A stretch of 64,000 bases of DNA, from the NCBI RefSeq assembly GCF_009914755.1, contig NC_060929.1, one strand, 5' to 3'. Under the pieces are notes generated by a model, which worked only from the letters and a program-made list of their open reading frames with translations, was not told the origin of the DNA and made no database searches. The position numbers and the translations under genes were made by a program. Origin of the DNA: the human T2T-CHM13v2.0 reference genome, Homo sapiens. Below are positions 13,800 to 45,653 of the stretch, piece after piece. The stretch's first letter is position 1; the number at the start of each line of letters is the position of its first letter.

Positions 13800-15400
13800 A
13801 TGCTTTCTTCAGGTGCCAGGTCTGGAGTGCTGGTGCACCTATCTCAAAACGCTGTCTCAAAACTCCAACAGGGAGCACCTAACGGTACTGGGTGCAACAT
13901 TGCTAGCACGGAGCAAACAGCAGTCCAGTAACCTGGAACAACAGGCTCTGCGAAACCAAGGACTCTGACAAAGAAAAATTGCCAATTCCAAACATAGCCT
14001 GTTTTAGAGAAATGAATGGCGTTGTCATCGAAAAAACACAGACTCGATTGTGACAGAAATACCGCCACAAACGCAGGTACAGGGACAGCCGACACCGAGA
14101 ACCAAGGGAAGCGGCTGAGAGCTGCGCCTCCACGGAATAACTGCCAGCCGGCACAGTGCGAGTGAGAAACCGGCCACTCCATGAAACGACCAGTACTGCC
14201 ACGGAAAAGAATCCGACGTCGCCAACAAGCGGTGCTACCAGGAGAAACGCCTGCTTTTGAAGAAAACAGCCAGGAACGCGACTGAAAGACACTTGCTCCC
14301 AGGAAGAATTGGCATTTGTTCCAAAACACAGCTGGATAAACCGAGAACCTTCGGAGTGGTTGCACCGAAACGGGGTCACCCAGCACCTCAGCGTCCTGGG
14401 CTCTAGCAAGCCTCACAGAAGCAACCGGCAGTGCTAACACCGAGGAGCACCTAGAGCGGCAAAACTAGCAGTAATGCCATCGACGAAAGGCCAGTTAGGC
14501 CAAAAGAATAGAATATTTAGTTCCGGGAATTACAGGCCAGCGCAAACCAGACAGCATAAAGCTGAGGGTCAGCAAAACAAAAATTAGGAACAATTTTTTT
14601 TTAAAGGGCAAGTTAGCTGAAAAACACACGCACACACAATAAAAACAATACATTTGGGAAGATTCATCAAATGAAAATTCAAAACTAAGCAAAACATGGA
14701 AAAATGGACTCTACAAAGAAGAAAATGCAAACACTTCTAAACAATGTGGTTTCACAGAGGTAATATCGCTGTCAGGCCTATATCAATATCTGCTCGGTCT
14801 CACCAGGACTTCTAACTAAGGGACTGCAGACACTGCTAAACCGCTACTTGCTACTCCTAAAATATCTTCTTCACCTACGTGCCCGGACTTCTATATTTAA
14901 AACTCAGGCATAAGTAAAGCAGGGTAAGTTATTATGAAACCGAAAGTTACTGGGACTAAGGAGTCGCAGGCATGGCTATGCTAGTACTGGTTGCGACCAA
15001 ATATGGACTTGCAAGAGCTAAGAAATCACATTCACAGGGGCACTTAAAATCGAAGCATGCACTTGTTACTCTAAGAAATCCCTAACCCAGGACTCGCTCA
15101 GAATATTTCGAACGCAGAATTAAGCATCTTTATCGCAGGCGAAATAAGCCGATACTTATTCCGCTTAAGTCCGAACTTGCTATGCAGAGAAACCACAATC
15201 AGGGCTACATTCCGAGTGTAGGAGGTTTAAAACTCCCGAAAAGGCAGTCAAAGCAGGCAGGGCCAAGCCGGACCTGCTGTGCCTACCCGAATTGCTAAAC
15301 CCAGTTGTGGTACCATTAAGTAACTGGTAGTTCTCTTATAAGCCAAGCTAAACTGTTCCAAAGAAAAAGACGCTGGAAACACTGCTAGCCCTGAGACCCA
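13800..15400 (+). repeat. CpG-rich degenerate repeat module 1
   Basis: Recurrent ggtgct...gagaaac and gacttgc...ctaagaaatc units; homologous to 17.2-18.9 kb and 41.6-43.2 kb. Confidence 0.7.
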
Positions 15401-15419
15401 TGAATAAGTAGTCTTTTCA

Positions 15420-15707
15420 ATTATTTATTTATTTTGAGACAGGCTCTCGCTCTGCTGGAGGGCGTTGGTGCTATCCGGCTCACCGCAGCCTCGACCTCCT
15501 GAGCTCAAGCAACCCGCCCACCCCAGCCTCCGGAGCAGCTGGGACTACAGGTGCACACCATCTCACAGGGCTAACTTTTGCATTTTTTGTAGACACAGGC
15601 CTCACCCTGTCGCCCAGGCTTTTCTCAAACTCCTGAGCTCAAGCAATCCGCATGCCTCCGCTGCTGAAAGTGCTGGGATTACTGCCGTGAGCCACGCTGC
15701 CCCGCCA
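15420..15707 (-). mobile_element. Diverged Alu (AluJ-like) that retains many CpGs
   Basis: Alu consensus; TSD gaataagta. Confidence 0.88.
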
Positions 15708-41578: not shown

Positions 41579-42786
41579 ATATCAAGTGTCACACTGAATA
41601 GCGGTGTGTCCTGTGGCAAACTTTATTTTTGGCGCAGTTAAGGCATTGCTACTAAGAAACTCGTCTCTGAGAAATATCGGTGGTTGGAAGGTTGTAGGGT
41701 GCTTCCACCGAGAAAGCGCCTACCCAGTGAAATACGCCTGTGACAGAAAAACCGAGGCCAAGCCCTGCCAGCAGTCTTGCCCAATCACGGTGCTGAGACA
41801 GTGAGACAGCCAGCCCGGGGAAAGTAGCCGTGCTAGGACACAGGAAGCGATACCACAAAGAACATGTGAGTCTTGTGAACAAGGAATGTTGTTTTGTTCA
41901 GCGCTACCAAGAGCGCGGCAACCGAGAAAACACGGAGTCGCCCCTAGTGGCGAAAGTGCGGATGCGAAACCGCTGGCTCGGCGTAAGAGCAGAGCCGCGG
42001 AAGAGAACCCTAGCGGCGGGGAACTAGCTCGCCTTCAGTGCTCACGGGAGAAGGCAAGTTAGAAAGAACCTGAGACGTGACACTGAAAATCAGTAGAAGA
42101 AATACGCCACATTTATTCTACCGGGGAAGACAGTGGGTAAGAAAAAAATACCGTAACATTTAAATTAAAAAATAATTAAAAATTTAAAAGCAAATAGAAA
42201 TTAAAACAAAATACACTGATAACCTCGCTGCCAGAACAAGATACACCAAAAAAAAATTTTTTTTTTGATTATACAAAACATACAAAGCATCCTACAAACA
42301 GAAAGAAATTGCAAACAGGGTCGAATGGTGAGATCCTACCATTATATTTGTCAGCACTAAACCCGTGCCTCTTGCGCCTATCCGAAGTTTCCTCGGATTA
42401 AGAAGAAACAGCCATGGTTAAACCGGTATTTGCGACACCAACAATTATCTGTAGCCGACGTACCCCAACTTCTACATGAGTGAAAAATCGCCAGCATAGC
42501 CAGGGCGAGACTATTGCGAATTCTAACTTGGTATGATTTAAAAATTCCAGACACTGCTAAATTTTTTTAAATTGCATTCTTCAGTACCTAGATTAATACA
42601 GGAGTTATAAACCGCACGCATGGCTATAATGGGGGCTCCTATTACGGAACAGGAATTTGCTACTACTAAAATTATGTAGGCATGGTTAAAGCCAGAATTG
42701 TTACAACCAGAAATCGCAAACTGGAATAACTCTCAACTTGCTACGGTAAGAAATAACTAAACTCTGACTTGGTCAGACTAAGAAAT

Positions 42787-43040
42787 CAGGAGTTTGAGAC
42801 CAGCCCAGGCAACATGGCGAAATCCTGTCTCTAGGAAGGATACAAAAAATTACCCGGGCGTGGTGGCGCGTGCCTGTGGTCCCAGCTACCCCGGAGGCTG
42901 GGGTGGGAGGATCGCTTCAGCCCGGGAGGCGGAGGTTGCAGTGAGCCGAGATCGCGGCACTGCACTCCAGCCTGGGCGACAGAGCCGGACCCCGTATCAA
43001 GAAAGAAAGAGAAAAGAAAAAGAACCAAAGAAAAAGAAAA
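42787..43040 (+). mobile_element. 5'-truncated, CpG-rich Alu
   Basis: Alu linker and right arm with GAAAA tail. Confidence 0.9.
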
Positions 43041-45653
43041 GTCACCATCGCACGGTTAAGTCTGCCTTGCTACAGCTAAACAGTGACTTCCTAGGACCAA
43101 GAAATCGCAGCCAGGGCTAGACCGATGCCCTAAATCGGGACTTGCTTAGGCTGAGAAATCACATTTTGGCTAGTTATTTGGACAAGAGGTAGAAATAGCG
43201 GGCACCGCGAAATCGAAACTTGCTAGGACCAAGAAGCCAACGACGGGCGAAACCGCAGGGGCCTGCGATAGAGACGCCAGCGGCGCCGCCGGGGGACTGG
43301 GTTCAGGAGGCCGAGCAGGAACCCGTGCGTCGGCGCTCGCGGCGCTGTGAAGAGACGGCGTCCGCGCAGCTCCTCTGCCTCTGGCTCGGAGGAGCGGCGG
43401 GCTCCCCCGCCCAGCGCCGGCGTCGCCCGGGAACCCCAGACTCTGCGCAACTGGCTGCGATTCCAAATCCCTCAGATCGGCTACCAGAGCGCTGCCGCCA
43501 CCGAGAAAATGGAGGCACCGAGGAACAAGATGTGCCGCGACCAAGAGAACTCGGCTTGGCGAAATGGCGGTGCCGGGACCCTAAGAGTGACGCCAGCCGG
43601 AGGAGTTCCCAAGGACAACATCCATTTTGGCGGAACCAACGGTGTTGTCACGCAGAAAATGTCGACCCTCGGAAAAGAGAGGTTCTGCGACCGAGAAATT
43701 CGGTGCAACAAGTGCTGTGACAGAAAACCCCCCGCTCGGCGCTGCTGGCGAAAGAGCCAACAAAACGCTGGGTGCTGCCACCGTGACACCGACTTTAGGA
43801 CCCCGGCCTCGGATGGAGAAAGGAGGGTACGGAGCCACCACATAACTTCCTAATGTCTTCAAATAGCGAAAGTGCTAGCCGGAAACTGCCGGCTGGGTTT
43901 ACCTATTGGTGCTCGTGTGGGACTAGCAGATTCGAGAAACCAGCGGGACTGGAACCTAGTACACTTCGGCAGTTGAGAAATGACTTACCAGGACAAATAC
44001 TGCTTCTGGCTCGATGGTGCTGCCCATGAACATCCGCCGGCTCTGAGAAACGAGCTGCACTGTCAGTGAGAAACCGTGGGCACTGAGAAACGAGCGGACT
44101 GCAACTGATAACTGCCCACCCAGTGCCACTACGACAAAGTGCTGCTGGCACTACTCCCACCCTCCGTCCTCAAATCAGTCCCCTCCCGCCTAAGAAGACC
44201 TTTATTTTTCCTAGCGAAGTCATACTGAGGGCCCCATCAACCGATCCCTTGCGATGCGCATGGGAAAAGGAGGCAGTATAGGGACCGAGAATCGGGCGGA
44301 TTGGGCTGGCCCTGGTAACAAAAGCCATCCGGGTCGCCAACCGTCTTCCACTGCAAGAAACAAACCTTCCAGTGGCTGGGCTCCGCCCTTCTCCTTGGTC
44401 AGAGCCCTCCAGGCTCCTAAGGGCGAAGCCGACACCTCATCCCTTTGGAACTTGAAGTTCTCAGTCCAAGACCTCCGTGGAGAGTGAAAGACTCAATGCC
44501 TCCTGACCGAGGCTTCAGGCCTGCCCCGGCAGCTAGGTACCTCTCCAGGGGATGGAACTCTGTGGGAACTGCTATTTAATTCTGATGGTTAACTCTGTCA
44601 GATGGCCTTGATATATGGGAATAATCGTTGCAGGAGGGTAGGGGAAATAAGAATCGCAAGACTCTAGCACAGGACGTGTGGATTGATGGTGAGGCCTTTG
44701 CTCCCTCTCCCCTTGAAATCCTCAAAGGGCAGTTCCCGATTTCTATCACCTTTGAAATTCATCCCTGATGTCTTCTCCATCTTTGGGAAGTGCAATGCAA
44801 TTTCAAGCTCTTGAATCTTCCCTCTCCCACATTTGTCAAATATACTGACGCTACAAACTCCTTTCTTACAGGAAACCTGAAACTGCCATTGAGCAGAAGG
44901 AAAACATCCCTTTCCAGAACCTTTCTCGTTTTTCTAAAAATCTGCACTTTTGGAAGTGATCCCCCAAAGAGACCTCCAGACTCTACCATGAGTGTCTCCA
45001 GCTGAACTCATCGTGTCTAATCCTCACCCTAGCTTATCCTGTTCAAATCATTTCCATCTTTTTCTGGATGAACCTGGGCGGATGTCAGACCAGAGAAGAG
45101 CACAGAATGTACCAGAGAGGTAAGAAGACCCATTTTGGGCTCTCACTTCTCACCCACTCCCAAGATGGTCACCTCCAGTCTTCCCCCCTATACCTTACCC
45201 TTTCTTCAGCTAGCCAAAACCTGCCCTGGTACTTGAGGCTTCTTCAGTTGCCTTCTTTTGCAGGCAGTAGAATAAAGGAAAGAGGGCAGTGTCAATAGAA
45301 GAAAAGTTACAGCCACTTTATCTAATTGAAGATACTGTGCAGAGCCTTTGAAAAAACAAAATATCTCACCCACCATTCCTCTCTCCGTTTCCACCCTAGC
45401 TTCCTATTTTAGCAAAAATGGTGGGATCAGCACCTCTGGAGGGAAGGGGTCACTCTTCCAGGTTAGGAATGTGGACAGGAGTTATGGAGCTTACTTCCCT
45501 AAAGGAGGAGGCATTCTAGTTCCGGCATTCAGATTCTGTCTGATTCCAATATGGTGTTTGTGTGGGGTGGTCAGAGAAAGGGCAAGTCGGCAACTGTATA
45601 TTCCTCAGCAAGAGACTATAAGACATTTGCATTTGGAAAATCAGGAGAGATGC

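What the first reader, a model, noticed from the sequence alone, without database searches (positions are those of the whole stretch)
13800..44150. Cryptic ~22-bp degenerate tandem repeat underlies the CpG domains
The + strand of 13.8-15.4, 17.2-20.3 and 40.7-44.15 kb repeats two related words. The GC type is AGCGGTGCTGCCACYGAGAAAC (14228, 17250, 17779, 19285, 20168, 40798; TGAGAAAC-like at 44044/44067/44084/44106). The AT type is GACTTGCTAGGACTAAGAAATC (15006, 15061, 18601, 18878, 42735, 42766, 43085, 43139, 43217). Both share TGCT-N4/5-CY(G/A)AGAAA, and all the copies I found are on one strand. The array is probably too diverged for standard tandem-repeat finders. Inference: an old minisatellite kept as a multivalent factor-binding or RNA-motif platform. 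Its - strand reads TTTCTYAG, resembling a run of 3' splice sites.
Basis: seen in the sequence. Interest (0 to 1): 0.75.

Follow-up and report, generated by a model that had tools for sequence, protein, structure and literature searches.

The report
Decayed minisatellite inside duplicated CpG islands
A worn-down short repeat really does fill these CpG-rich stretches, but it is a fossil carried along in seven old local copies of one 3-kb promoter module near ANXA2R, with no sign that the repeat words themselves are being preserved.

Summary
A strand-specific ~24-nt word (consensus AGCGGTGCTGCCACTGAGAAACCG) is strongly enriched in the three stretches: 86 sites against 13.8±13.7 in order-3 Markov shuffles. 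At ≥10 bits there are 75 sites on + and 3 on − across the window. The register is not 22 bp. Lag 22 is null; site spacing peaks at 38-42 bp, with minor modes at 17 and 23. Head-to-tail order survives only in short patches, and TRF barely exceeds shuffles.

The three stretches are paralogs. Genome search and 140 kb of flanking DNA show seven copies of one ~3.3-kb CpG-island module within 118 kb of 5p12, in both orientations and nowhere else in the genome. Each carries the word on one strand only, and each lies at or near ANXA2R or lncRNA start sites.

An unbiased test between paralogs shows no significant extra conservation of the words (+0 to +4 points, p 0.06-0.54). CTCF-likeness, a hairpin, coding relics and known RNA families were all excluded.

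Best reading: a relic CpG-rich minisatellite that forms the body of a duplicated CpG-island promoter module. The idea that it is "kept as a platform" has no support here. Two annotated antisense splice acceptors do reuse the word's complement as their pyrimidine tract.

The parts
13800..15400 (+). Block D1: the most diverged, partial copy of the module. It has 16 words at >=7 bits and GC of only about 0.47.
   Evidence: PWM sites. Weak colinear similarity to D2 (20 same-strand against 4 opposite-strand hits) and to D3 (27 against 2). Gaps of 38-42 bp: 4 against 0.6 expected. The k-mer repeat excess is not significant on its own (z=1.4).
16900..20320 (+). Block D2: a full-length module (~3.3 kb). 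It is a CpG island (o/e 0.9-1.0) with A>>T on the + strand and 39 words at >=7 bits.
   Evidence: (z=12.4). It aligns over 3315 bp at 77% with the copy at -73.9..-70.8 kb.
40550..44400 (+). Block D3: a module copy of a second subfamily, interrupted by two Alus, with 30 words at >=10 bits.
   Evidence: Its left part, 40553-42981, is 80% identical to a copy at -16.3..-13.9 kb.
18736..19471 (+). Best-conserved core of the module in D2. This is the query that found all the paralogs.
   Evidence: 78% identity to 43083-43822. The genome search returned 6 hits, all on chr5 between 43.20 and 43.32 Mb.
43083..43822 (+). Core of the module in D3.
44034..44116 (+). Clearest surviving head-to-tail patch: period 40, 2.1 copies, word starts 23 and 17 nt apart.
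   Evidence: Permissive TRF score 109; PWM sites at 44030, 44053 and 44070.
19286..19382 (+). Dense run of four words in D2, with starts at 19286, 19303, 19329 and 19359.
41220..41540 (+). Alu inserted into D3 after the B3-D3 duplication. It is not part of the array.
   Evidence: Alu-type SRP hits in Rfam. It is absent from the B3 copy, where the alignment jumps from 41213 to 41532.
42780..43045 (+). Alu in D3 that is shared with the B3 copy and absent from D2. It dates the B3-D3 duplication to the primate (Alu) era.
   Evidence: 265-bp offset shift; colinear alignment runs into the Alu.
18206..18235 (-). 3' splice site of the alternative ANXA2R exon (acceptor at 18212). Its pyrimidine tract is the complement of a word plus an A-run.
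   Evidence...ttttttttctcgtag|G; PWM site at 18206 (8.7 bits). Exon coordinates come from the hub's gene table.
44053..44080 (-). 3' splice site of ANXA2R-OT1 exon 2 (acceptor at 44059). Its pyrimidine tract is the complement of a word.
   Evidence...ggtttctcactgacag|TGCAG; PWM site at 44053 (17.9 bits).
16718..16908 (-). The first 64 codons of ANXA2R lie inside the duplicated module.
   Evidence: tblastn finds aa 1-64 at 80% identity at -3.0 kb and aa 1-32 at 75% at -28 kb. blastn aligns -4711..-2841 with 16718-18544.

Best explanation
The three CpG-rich stretches are copies of one ~3.3-kb module. The body of that module is the decayed remnant of a CpG-rich, T-poor minisatellite. The ancestral unit was about 40 bp: a ~24-nt word (AGCGGTGCTGCCACTGAGAAACCG) followed by a ~16-nt shortened copy of it, which gives 23+17 spacing.

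The array arose first. The module was then copied at least seven times by old local duplications (77-85% identity, both orientations) within 118 kb of 5p12. At least one of these duplications occurred after Alu elements appeared.

Shown: the word recurs on one strand, and the whole block keeps the unit's base composition. Inferred: this is because the DNA descends from one tandem array, not because each word is individually maintained.

Inferred function today: the module provides CpG density. Each word carries 2-3 CpGs, and the blocks have kept CpG o/e of 0.75-1.0. That implies they have stayed unmethylated in the germ line and act as CpG-island promoters. ANXA2R and at least eight lncRNAs start in or at the copies, several at homologous positions. 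As a by-product, the T-rich complement has supplied pyrimidine tracts for two antisense splice acceptors.
For: Enrichment: 86 sites against 13.8±13.7 (max 50) in 100 order-3 shuffles run through the same refinement.

Strand and location: 169 sites at >=10 bits in 204 kb, of which 146 lie in the seven blocks on the block's strand, 1 on the other strand and 22 outside; the blocks are 11.6% of the DNA. In the 140 kb never used for training, 74 of 91 sites lie in B1-B4 on the correct strand. Inverted copies carry the word on the - strand only: 0 against 13, 16 and 15.

Register: gaps of 38-42 bp are enriched inside single blocks. D2 has 7 against 1.8, B1 8 against 1.5, D1 4 against 0.6, B3 4 against 0.4 and B2 3 against 0.6. 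Autocorrelation peaks at lags 40-42 and 17. The consensus of 36 aligned units shows a word plus a decayed short word.

Composition: the unit is 25% A and 12.5% T, and block 19001-19500 is 24.6% A and 12.6% T. DNA between sites is also A>T, at +0.06 to +0.24.

Paralogy. All genome hits for three separate parts of the block fall on chr5 between 43.20 and 43.32 Mb. The 19-mer with <=2 mismatches has 73 genome matches, 5 of them in this cluster and no second cluster.

The array is older than the duplications: 280 of 363 site columns are sites in both D2 and D3.

No motif-specific constraint was detected.

Ordinary CpG islands in the same 204 kb (-99, -79, -44 and +97/98 kb) have 0-1 sites and lack the block-like positive skew (-0.20 to +0.05).

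TSSs map to shared block positions: 17181 and 17324 antisense, 18753 and 18995 sense, 19519 and 19533 antisense. A shared Alu and a private Alu date one duplication. Gain of CpG-island promoters by expansion of short repeats is described in PMC7496026 (passages read).
Against: No head-to-tail array can be demonstrated with a standard tool. Permissive TRF is only marginally above shuffles, so tandem origin is inferred from spacing and short patches.

Words at >=7 bits cover only 14-33% of a block. The A-rich middle part (about 17.95-18.55 kb and 42.05-42.7 kb) may have a different origin.

D1 and D3b show no k-mer repeat excess on their own.

The conservation test has limited power: 377-595 site columns in paralogs about 20% diverged. 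All but one of the eight differences are positive (+0.4 to +7.4 points, the exception -0.2; best p 0.06), so weak constraint is not excluded.

Germ-line hypomethylation and promoter activity are inferred from CpG o/e and from the hub's annotation, and were not measured here.

TSS mapping around 19.52 kb rests on poorly aligned columns (local identity 0.31-0.46).

No other species could be examined.
Confidence: 0.6

Rival explanations
1. Multivalent DNA platform. The ~24-nt word is the recognition site of a sequence-specific factor, for example a multi-zinc-finger protein. The seven modules would be maintained as arrays of 20-40 sites each, co-regulating the ANXA2R/lncRNA cluster or organising local chromatin.
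For: The word is long and specific enough for such a protein: about 13 bits over 24 columns. Its orientation is strict and its spacing regular at ~40 bp. All seven copies keep many sites after about 20% divergence. In-site identity is nominally higher in 7 of 8 comparisons. A figure legend in PMC13652320 names a multi-peak CTCF locus 'near ANXA2R-OT1' (passage only).
Against: The conservation excess is small and not significant once ascertainment is removed (p 0.06-0.54). The word does not match the CTCF core as I recalled it: 0 block hits at <=1 mismatch, and 6 of 34 at <=2. There is no second cluster of the word anywhere in the genome, so any such factor would have this single target locus. 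Retention of sites is expected from common descent alone at about 80% identity.
Confidence: 0.15
2. RNA-level platform. Transcripts antisense to the word carry repeated U-rich/AG elements (TTTCTYRG). These would act as splice acceptors or as binding sites for pyrimidine-tract proteins. Alternatively, sense transcripts would carry a repeated A-rich motif.
For: Both annotated internal acceptors of antisense transcripts in the blocks (2 of 2) use a word's complement as pyrimidine tract. CYRAGAAA occurs 8 and 12 times in D2 and D3 against 2.2 and 3.0 expected. Every block is transcribed on both strands according to the hub's table.
Against: Only 2 of about 70 words in the window are at annotated splice sites. 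There is no covariation for the one obvious stem (54% paired, the same as the column shuffle). No Rfam family reaches its gathering score, and the matches are almost all Alu-derived (0 of 53). There is no motif-specific conservation. The word is oriented with the block, not with a single transcription direction, because both strands have TSSs.
Confidence: 0.1
3. The module is a fragment of an unrecognised transposable element or endogenous virus that carries an internal VNTR, and the copies are insertions rather than duplications.
For: Many elements do carry internal 30-50-bp repeat arrays (general knowledge, recalled). The sense-strand A-rich, T-poor, CpG-rich composition resembles some retroelement 5' regions (recalled only, not tested).
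Against: Three different parts of the block hit only chr5 43.20-43.32 Mb. The copies are embedded in much longer colinear duplications, for example -84.8..-62.5 kb against 3.5..27.7 kb. No open frame matches Pfam (0 of 7). No RepeatMasker/Dfam library was available, so an ancient element origin for the first copy cannot be excluded.
Confidence: 0.05
4. Composition artefact. A-rich, T-poor, CpG-rich DNA throws up GAGAAA-type words by chance, and the eye joins them into a repeat.
For: Short cores such as AGAAA or RAGAAA are fully explained by an order-3 Markov model in D1 and D2 (for example 25 observed against 24.1 expected). D1 and D3b have no k-mer excess.
Against: The longer gapped patterns, the PWM refinement, the 12-mer pair count in D2 and the ~40-bp spacing all exceed order-3 shuffles or random placement by wide margins. 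Other CpG islands nearby carry 0-1 sites.
Confidence: 0.03

Closest known systems
CpG islands built from or enlarged by short tandem repeats (CpG-island promoter gain by repeat expansion, PMC7496026, passages read; tandem repeats in CpG islands of imprinted genes, recalled and not checked here)
   Same: A CpG-containing unit of tens of bp, amplified in tandem, raises local CpG density and forms the body of a promoter CpG island.
   Different: Here the array is far more decayed and below TRF detection. It spans about 3 kb, is strongly strand-asymmetric (T 13-20%), and the whole island has since been copied seven times. No imprinting or allele-specific methylation is known or tested.
Human minisatellites / VNTRs such as MSR1 on chromosome 19 (PMC6112826, seen only in the search listing)
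   Same: Unit length of tens of bp, GC-rich, found near promoters, with degenerate copies.
   Different: MSR1 is dispersed in many arrays, whereas this word clusters at one locus only. No intact array remains, and copy-number polymorphism was not examined.
Old low-copy repeats / segmental duplications that spawn lncRNA families
   Same: Kilobase-scale paralogous blocks in both orientations over about 120 kb, each seeding transcripts from inherited promoters.
   Different: Identity of 77-85% is below the usual >=90% definition of segmental duplication, so these copies would not appear in standard SD tracks (recalled definition).
CTCF-binding macrosatellites (DXZ4, FIRRE) and the XIST A-repeat (recalled)
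   Same: Kilobase CpG-rich units, or short GC-rich modules with regular spacers, proposed as multivalent platforms for a protein.
   Different: There is no CTCF-like core in the word and no conserved hairpin. The modules are dispersed rather than in tandem, and there is no evidence of constraint on the modules.

Membership tests
Minisatellite (tandem repeat, unit about 10-100 bp) | Head-to-tail copies detectable as an array | tested here: inconclusive
   Default TRF finds none. Permissive TRF gives only short patches (44034-44116 with period 40; 19560-19610 with period 22), with scores of 109-118 against a shuffle maximum of about 100.
Minisatellite (tandem repeat, unit about 10-100 bp) | A recurring unit in one orientation with a preferred period | tested here: met
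   146 sites on the block strand against 1 on the other. Gaps of 38-42 bp are enriched in 5 of 6 blocks tested; D3c is not significant. Autocorrelation peaks at 40-42 and 17.
   The z-score at lag 22 runs from -1.4 to +1.8. No gaps fall at 19-21, and 7 of 83 fall at 22-24.
Minisatellite (tandem repeat, unit about 10-100 bp) | Copy-number variation between individuals | not testable with these tools
   Only one assembly was available.
CpG island | Length >=500 bp, G+C >=0.5-0.55, CpG o/e >=0.6-0.65 (thresholds recalled) | tested here: met
   19001-20000 has GC 0.57-0.63 and o/e 0.90-0.91; 43001-44000 has GC 0.55-0.59 and o/e 0.92-1.02. D1 and the A-rich middle parts fall short on G+C (0.39-0.47), although their o/e is 0.57-1.0.
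CpG island | Unmethylated in the germ line; promoter activity | not testable with these tools
   Inferred from retained CpG o/e in all seven copies and from the TSSs in the hub's table.
Segmental duplication (standard definition >=1 kb and >=90% identity, recalled) | >=1 kb paralogous alignments | tested here: met
   3315 bp, 3561 bp, 2201 bp and others.
Segmental duplication (standard definition >=1 kb and >=90% identity, recalled) | >=90% identity | tested here: not met
   77-85% for the module-bearing duplicons.
Interspersed transposable element | Copies dispersed over the genome | tested here: not met
   All hits for three block parts lie on chr5 43.20-43.32 Mb.
Interspersed transposable element | Match to a curated repeat library | not testable with these tools
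   No Dfam/RepeatMasker was available. The hub's list of the longest masked stretches contains no block segment apart from Alus.
CTCF-site array (DXZ4/FIRRE type) | CTCF core motif in each unit | tested here: not met
   0 block matches at <=1 mismatch and 6 of 34 at <=2, with the blocks being 11.6% of the DNA. The motif string was recalled.
Structured RNA repeat (XIST A-repeat type) | Conserved stem with covariation | tested here: not met
   Paired fraction 0.536 against 0.539±0.013 in the column shuffle, over 169 sites. No Rfam family reaches its gathering score.

The most novel reading that the evidence does not exclude
The word is the binding site of a dedicated, still unidentified sequence-specific factor, most plausibly a primate multi-zinc-finger protein. 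The seven modules, each with 20-40 co-oriented sites at ~40-bp spacing, would form a single-locus multivalent platform. That platform would set the chromatin state of the whole ANXA2R/lncRNA cluster, in the way CTCF arrays do at DXZ4 or FIRRE. The weak, consistently positive conservation excess (7 of 8 comparisons, best p 0.06) would be its trace.
Probability: 0.12. Interest if true: 0.6.

Novelty: new member of a known kind. Interest (0 to 1): 0.33.

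Why it matters
It gives a worked example of how a CpG island can be born from a short CpG-rich tandem repeat and then multiplied by local duplication. One module has seeded a protein-coding gene's promoter and first codons (ANXA2R) and a family of at least eight lncRNAs that are therefore paralogs.

At 77-85% identity these copies lie below the usual segmental-duplication threshold, so the relationship would be invisible in standard tracks. 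This matters for anyone interpreting expression, methylation or GWAS signals at these look-alike promoters. Array probes and short reads may cross-map; one episignature table lists a CpG-island DMR under FLJ32255.

It is also a caution. A striking, statistically solid motif array need not be under selection.

Tried and rejected
1. 22-bp periodicity: rejected.

2. Default and permissive TRF: no convincing array.

3. Rfam scan of 13-45 kb at E<=1: 53 matches, none reaching a gathering score. Nearly all are Alu-derived. The only match inside motif DNA is HTT-AS1_3 at 19925-19975 (26.5 bits against a 70-bit cut-off), taken as chance.

4. CTCF-like core: not enriched in the blocks.

5. GGTG...CACC hairpin: no covariation.

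6. Coding relic on the T-poor strand: 15 stop-to-stop frames of >=90 aa were found. I sent 7 of the 15 to Pfam and none reached a cut-off; the single hit was KA1 at E=0.06.

7. First conservation tests (80% against 70%, then 83% against 73%) looked positive, but were biased by calling sites in the copies being compared. The unbiased design removed most of the effect.

8. ANXA2R as a product of the array: rejected. Only its first 64 codons lie in the module, and the coding region has no PWM sites.

9. Literature. A search on the five lncRNA names found 24 papers, all gene lists or tables as far as the listing and two passages show. A search on ANXA2R/C5orf39 with evolution terms listed no paper holding either gene name. 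A conceptual search found no description of this repeat.

10. Technical. No other species' genome, repeat library, ChIP, CLIP or methylation data were available.

Full report
OBSERVATION

The one exception is 44106, which reads TGATAAC rather than TGAGAAAC. Default TRF reports no array of this word between 13 and 45 kb.

Against order-3 Markov shuffles of each stretch, the short cores (AGAAA, RAGAAA) are mostly explained by composition, but the longer gapped patterns are not. TKSY-N4-6-YYRAGAA occurs 9 times in D2 (17.2-20.3 kb) and 11 times in D3 (40.7-44.15 kb), against 0.5 and 0.8 expected (0 of 300 shuffles reach it). D1 (13.8-15.4 kb) has only 2 against 0.3. The minus strand has none anywhere.

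A hypothesis-free count of 12-mers within two mismatches shows a large same-strand excess in D2 (669 against 357±25, z=12.4) and a modest one in D3c (z=2.5). There is none in D1 (z=1.4), D3b (z=-1.2) or two control blocks, and no comparable inverted excess.

THE WORD AND ITS REGISTER

Iterative PWM refinement converges on AGCGGTGCTGCCACTGAGAAACCG, with 86 sites in 8.2 kb of Alu-free block DNA. The same procedure on 100 order-3 shuffles gives 13.8±13.7 sites, with a maximum of 50.

Over the whole window there are 75 sites at >=10 bits on + and 3 on -, with 70 of the 75 inside the three stretches. At >=13 bits the counts are 42 and 0.

The period is not 22 bp. Base and 4-mer autocorrelation are null at lag 22 (z from -1.4 to +1.8), but peak at 40-42 (z 3.3-5.5) and at 17 (z 2.7-4.3) in D2, D3b and D3c. 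Gaps between neighbouring sites are 38-42 bp in 16 of 83 cases (random placement gives 3.7±1.8, reached in 0 of 2000 trials). There are minor modes at 16-18 (7) and 22-24 (7), and none at 19-21. The 40-bp mode also holds inside single blocks, so it is not produced by counting paralogs twice.

Thirty-six aligned ~40-bp units show the word followed by a ~16-nt spacer that reads like a shortened, decayed word, hence 23+17. Permissive TRF finds only short patches (44034-44116 with period 40; 19560-19610 with period 22). Its scores of 109-118 compare with a shuffle maximum of about 100. Words at >=7 bits cover 14-33% of a block.

COMPOSITION

On the word strand the blocks have A>>T (AT skew +0.2 to +0.4, T as low as 13%), no GC skew, and CpG o/e of 0.9-1.0. 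This mirrors the unit itself (25% A, 12.5% T). DNA between recognisable words is skewed the same way (+0.06 to +0.24) and is mostly CpG-rich. That is what one expects if the whole block, and not only the detectable sites, descends from the array.

WHAT THE STRETCHES ARE

D2 and D3 are colinear paralogs. A 763-bp core is 78% identical. Sensitive BLAST gives 51 same-strand hits against 3 opposite-strand hits. The backbone runs from about 17.4-20.27 kb to about 41.6-44.17 kb, and its offset shifts by the 265-bp Alu at 42780-43045. D1 is a weaker third copy.

The host genome could be searched. The core has 6 hits, all on chr5 between 43.20 and 43.32 Mb. Two other parts of the block also hit only there. 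The 19-mer with <=2 mismatches has 73 genome matches, 5 of them in this cluster and no second cluster.

I fetched 100 kb to the left and 40 kb to the right of the window and scanned them with the fixed PWM. The 204 kb holds seven blocks:
- -74..-71 kb, word on +, 26 sites
- -32..-29 kb, word on -, 20 sites
- -17..-15 kb, word on +, 10 sites
- -6..-4 kb, word on -, 18 sites
- D1, D2 and D3, all with the word on +

In each block the AT skew follows the word strand. Of 169 sites, 146 lie in blocks on the block's strand, 1 lies on the wrong strand and 22 lie outside. In the 140 kb never used for training, 74 of 91 sites lie in the four outside blocks. Four ordinary CpG islands in the same region, including the one at ZNF131, have 0-1 sites and lack the block-like positive skew (-0.20 to +0.05).

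A self-comparison shows that the neighbourhood is a mosaic of long, old duplications at 77-85% identity. For example, -84.8..-62.5 kb matches 3.5..27.7 kb, and the module at -73949..-70766 aligns with 16966-20195 over 3315 bp. The module is one part of these duplicons.

The copy at -16.3..-13.9 kb shares with D3 the Alu at 42780-43045 but lacks the Alu at 41220-41540. That duplication therefore falls within the Alu era.

Sites occupy homologous columns in D2 and D3 (280 of 363 site columns), so the array predates the duplications.

IS THE WORD MAINTAINED?

Simple comparisons looked positive: 80% identity inside sites against 70% outside, then 83% against 73%. Both were biased, because sites were called in the very copies being compared.

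I then called sites in one copy and measured identity between other copies. In the five comparisons where neither compared copy had trained the PWM, the excess is +1.6, +3.3, +2.6, +4.1 and -0.2 points (shifted-mask p 0.28, 0.17, 0.23, 0.06 and 0.54). The three comparisons that involve D2 or D3 as a compared copy give +3.8, +0.4 and +7.4 points (p 0.18, 0.47 and 0.10).

There is thus no significant motif-specific constraint, although weak constraint is not excluded.

The word is not CTCF-like, and its GGTG...CACC halves do not covary. No Rfam family reaches its gathering score. Seven of the 15 long open frames were tested against Pfam and none reached a cut-off.

LINKS TO GENES

This section uses the hub's table together with my alignments. 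TSSs map to shared module positions:
- ANXA2R (17181) and LOC124906502 (equivalent to 17324) are antisense to the word.
- FLJ32255 (18753) and ANXA2R-AS1 (18995) are sense.
- LOC100132356 (19519) and LOC105374748 (19533) are antisense. Alignment is poor at this last pair.

The first 64 codons of ANXA2R lie in the module and have partial copies at -3 kb and -28 kb. Both annotated internal acceptors of antisense transcripts in the blocks use a word's complement as pyrimidine tract.

LITERATURE

The lncRNA names appear only in gene lists and tables, as far as the listing and two passages show. I found no description of the repeat or of the paralogy. PMC7496026 (passages only) describes gain of CpG-island promoters through expansion of short repeats, and notes that larger events such as segmental duplication could also create or remove islands. 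Supplements were not consulted.

VERDICT

It is best read as the fossil of a ~40-bp CpG-rich minisatellite that makes up a CpG-island promoter module, later copied seven times locally. The 22-bp period and the 'kept as a platform' inference are not supported. The splice-site remark is true for two words.

This is a clear example of a known kind of thing rather than a new mechanism. A dedicated binding factor remains possible (about 12%) and could be tested with existing ChIP and CLIP data.

Noticed in passing
window 18870-18881 and 43209-43220; also -72088, -14118, -30744 and -3427 relative to the window start: The ISRE-like string GAAANNGAAACT (consensus recalled) occurs 6 times in the 204 kb. 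All 6 are inside module copies and on the word strand, in 6 of the 7 blocks. It is formed at the junction of two AT-type words. No interferon link was tested.
   Followed up: partly
window 17384, 19274 and 41628 (+); 18913 (-); also -70848 and -2970: E2F-like TTTSGCGC strings (recalled consensus) sit just upstream of several words, as TTTTGGCGC-N8-word. Six of the 8 occurrences in 204 kb are in blocks. A YY1-like AAATGGCGG lies at 19210, at 43562 and in the -5 kb copy. None was tested for function.
   Followed up: partly
window 3500-27700 against -84800..-62500; window 233-3261 against -27483..-25510; others: Most of the 204-kb neighbourhood is a mosaic of old duplications at 77-90% identity, in both orientations. 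These lie below the usual segmental-duplication threshold. The annotated lncRNAs here (LOC105374745, FLJ32255, LOC124906502, LOC105374748, ANXA2R-AS1, LOC100132356 and others) are therefore likely paralogs of one another.
   Followed up: partly
window 16718-16908 (-); copies at -3031..-2840 and -28077..-27982: The N-terminal 64 (or 32) codons of ANXA2R have non-coding or untested paralogous copies beside two other modules. The rest of the coding region has no paralog in the 204 kb. This suggests that the gene's start was recruited from module DNA.
   Followed up: partly
window 20446-21159 and 7970-9376: A long (TA)n-rich simple repeat (about 600 bp, GC near 0) directly flanks D2. An inverted, related copy lies at 7970-9376 (79-81% identity).
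   Followed up: no
window 19471-20025: D2 carries about 460 bp more than D3 at this point; the equivalent D3 interval is 43822-43919. The extra DNA is itself dense in words, so it may be a local re-expansion or a deletion in D3. The -72 kb copy has it.
   Followed up: no
window 30647-37485 against -90701..-85187: An A-rich (about 40% A) L1-like stretch between D2 and D3 is about 90% identical to a stretch 120 kb upstream. This is younger than the module duplications. It is either a separate duplication or two insertions of one subfamily.
   Followed up: no
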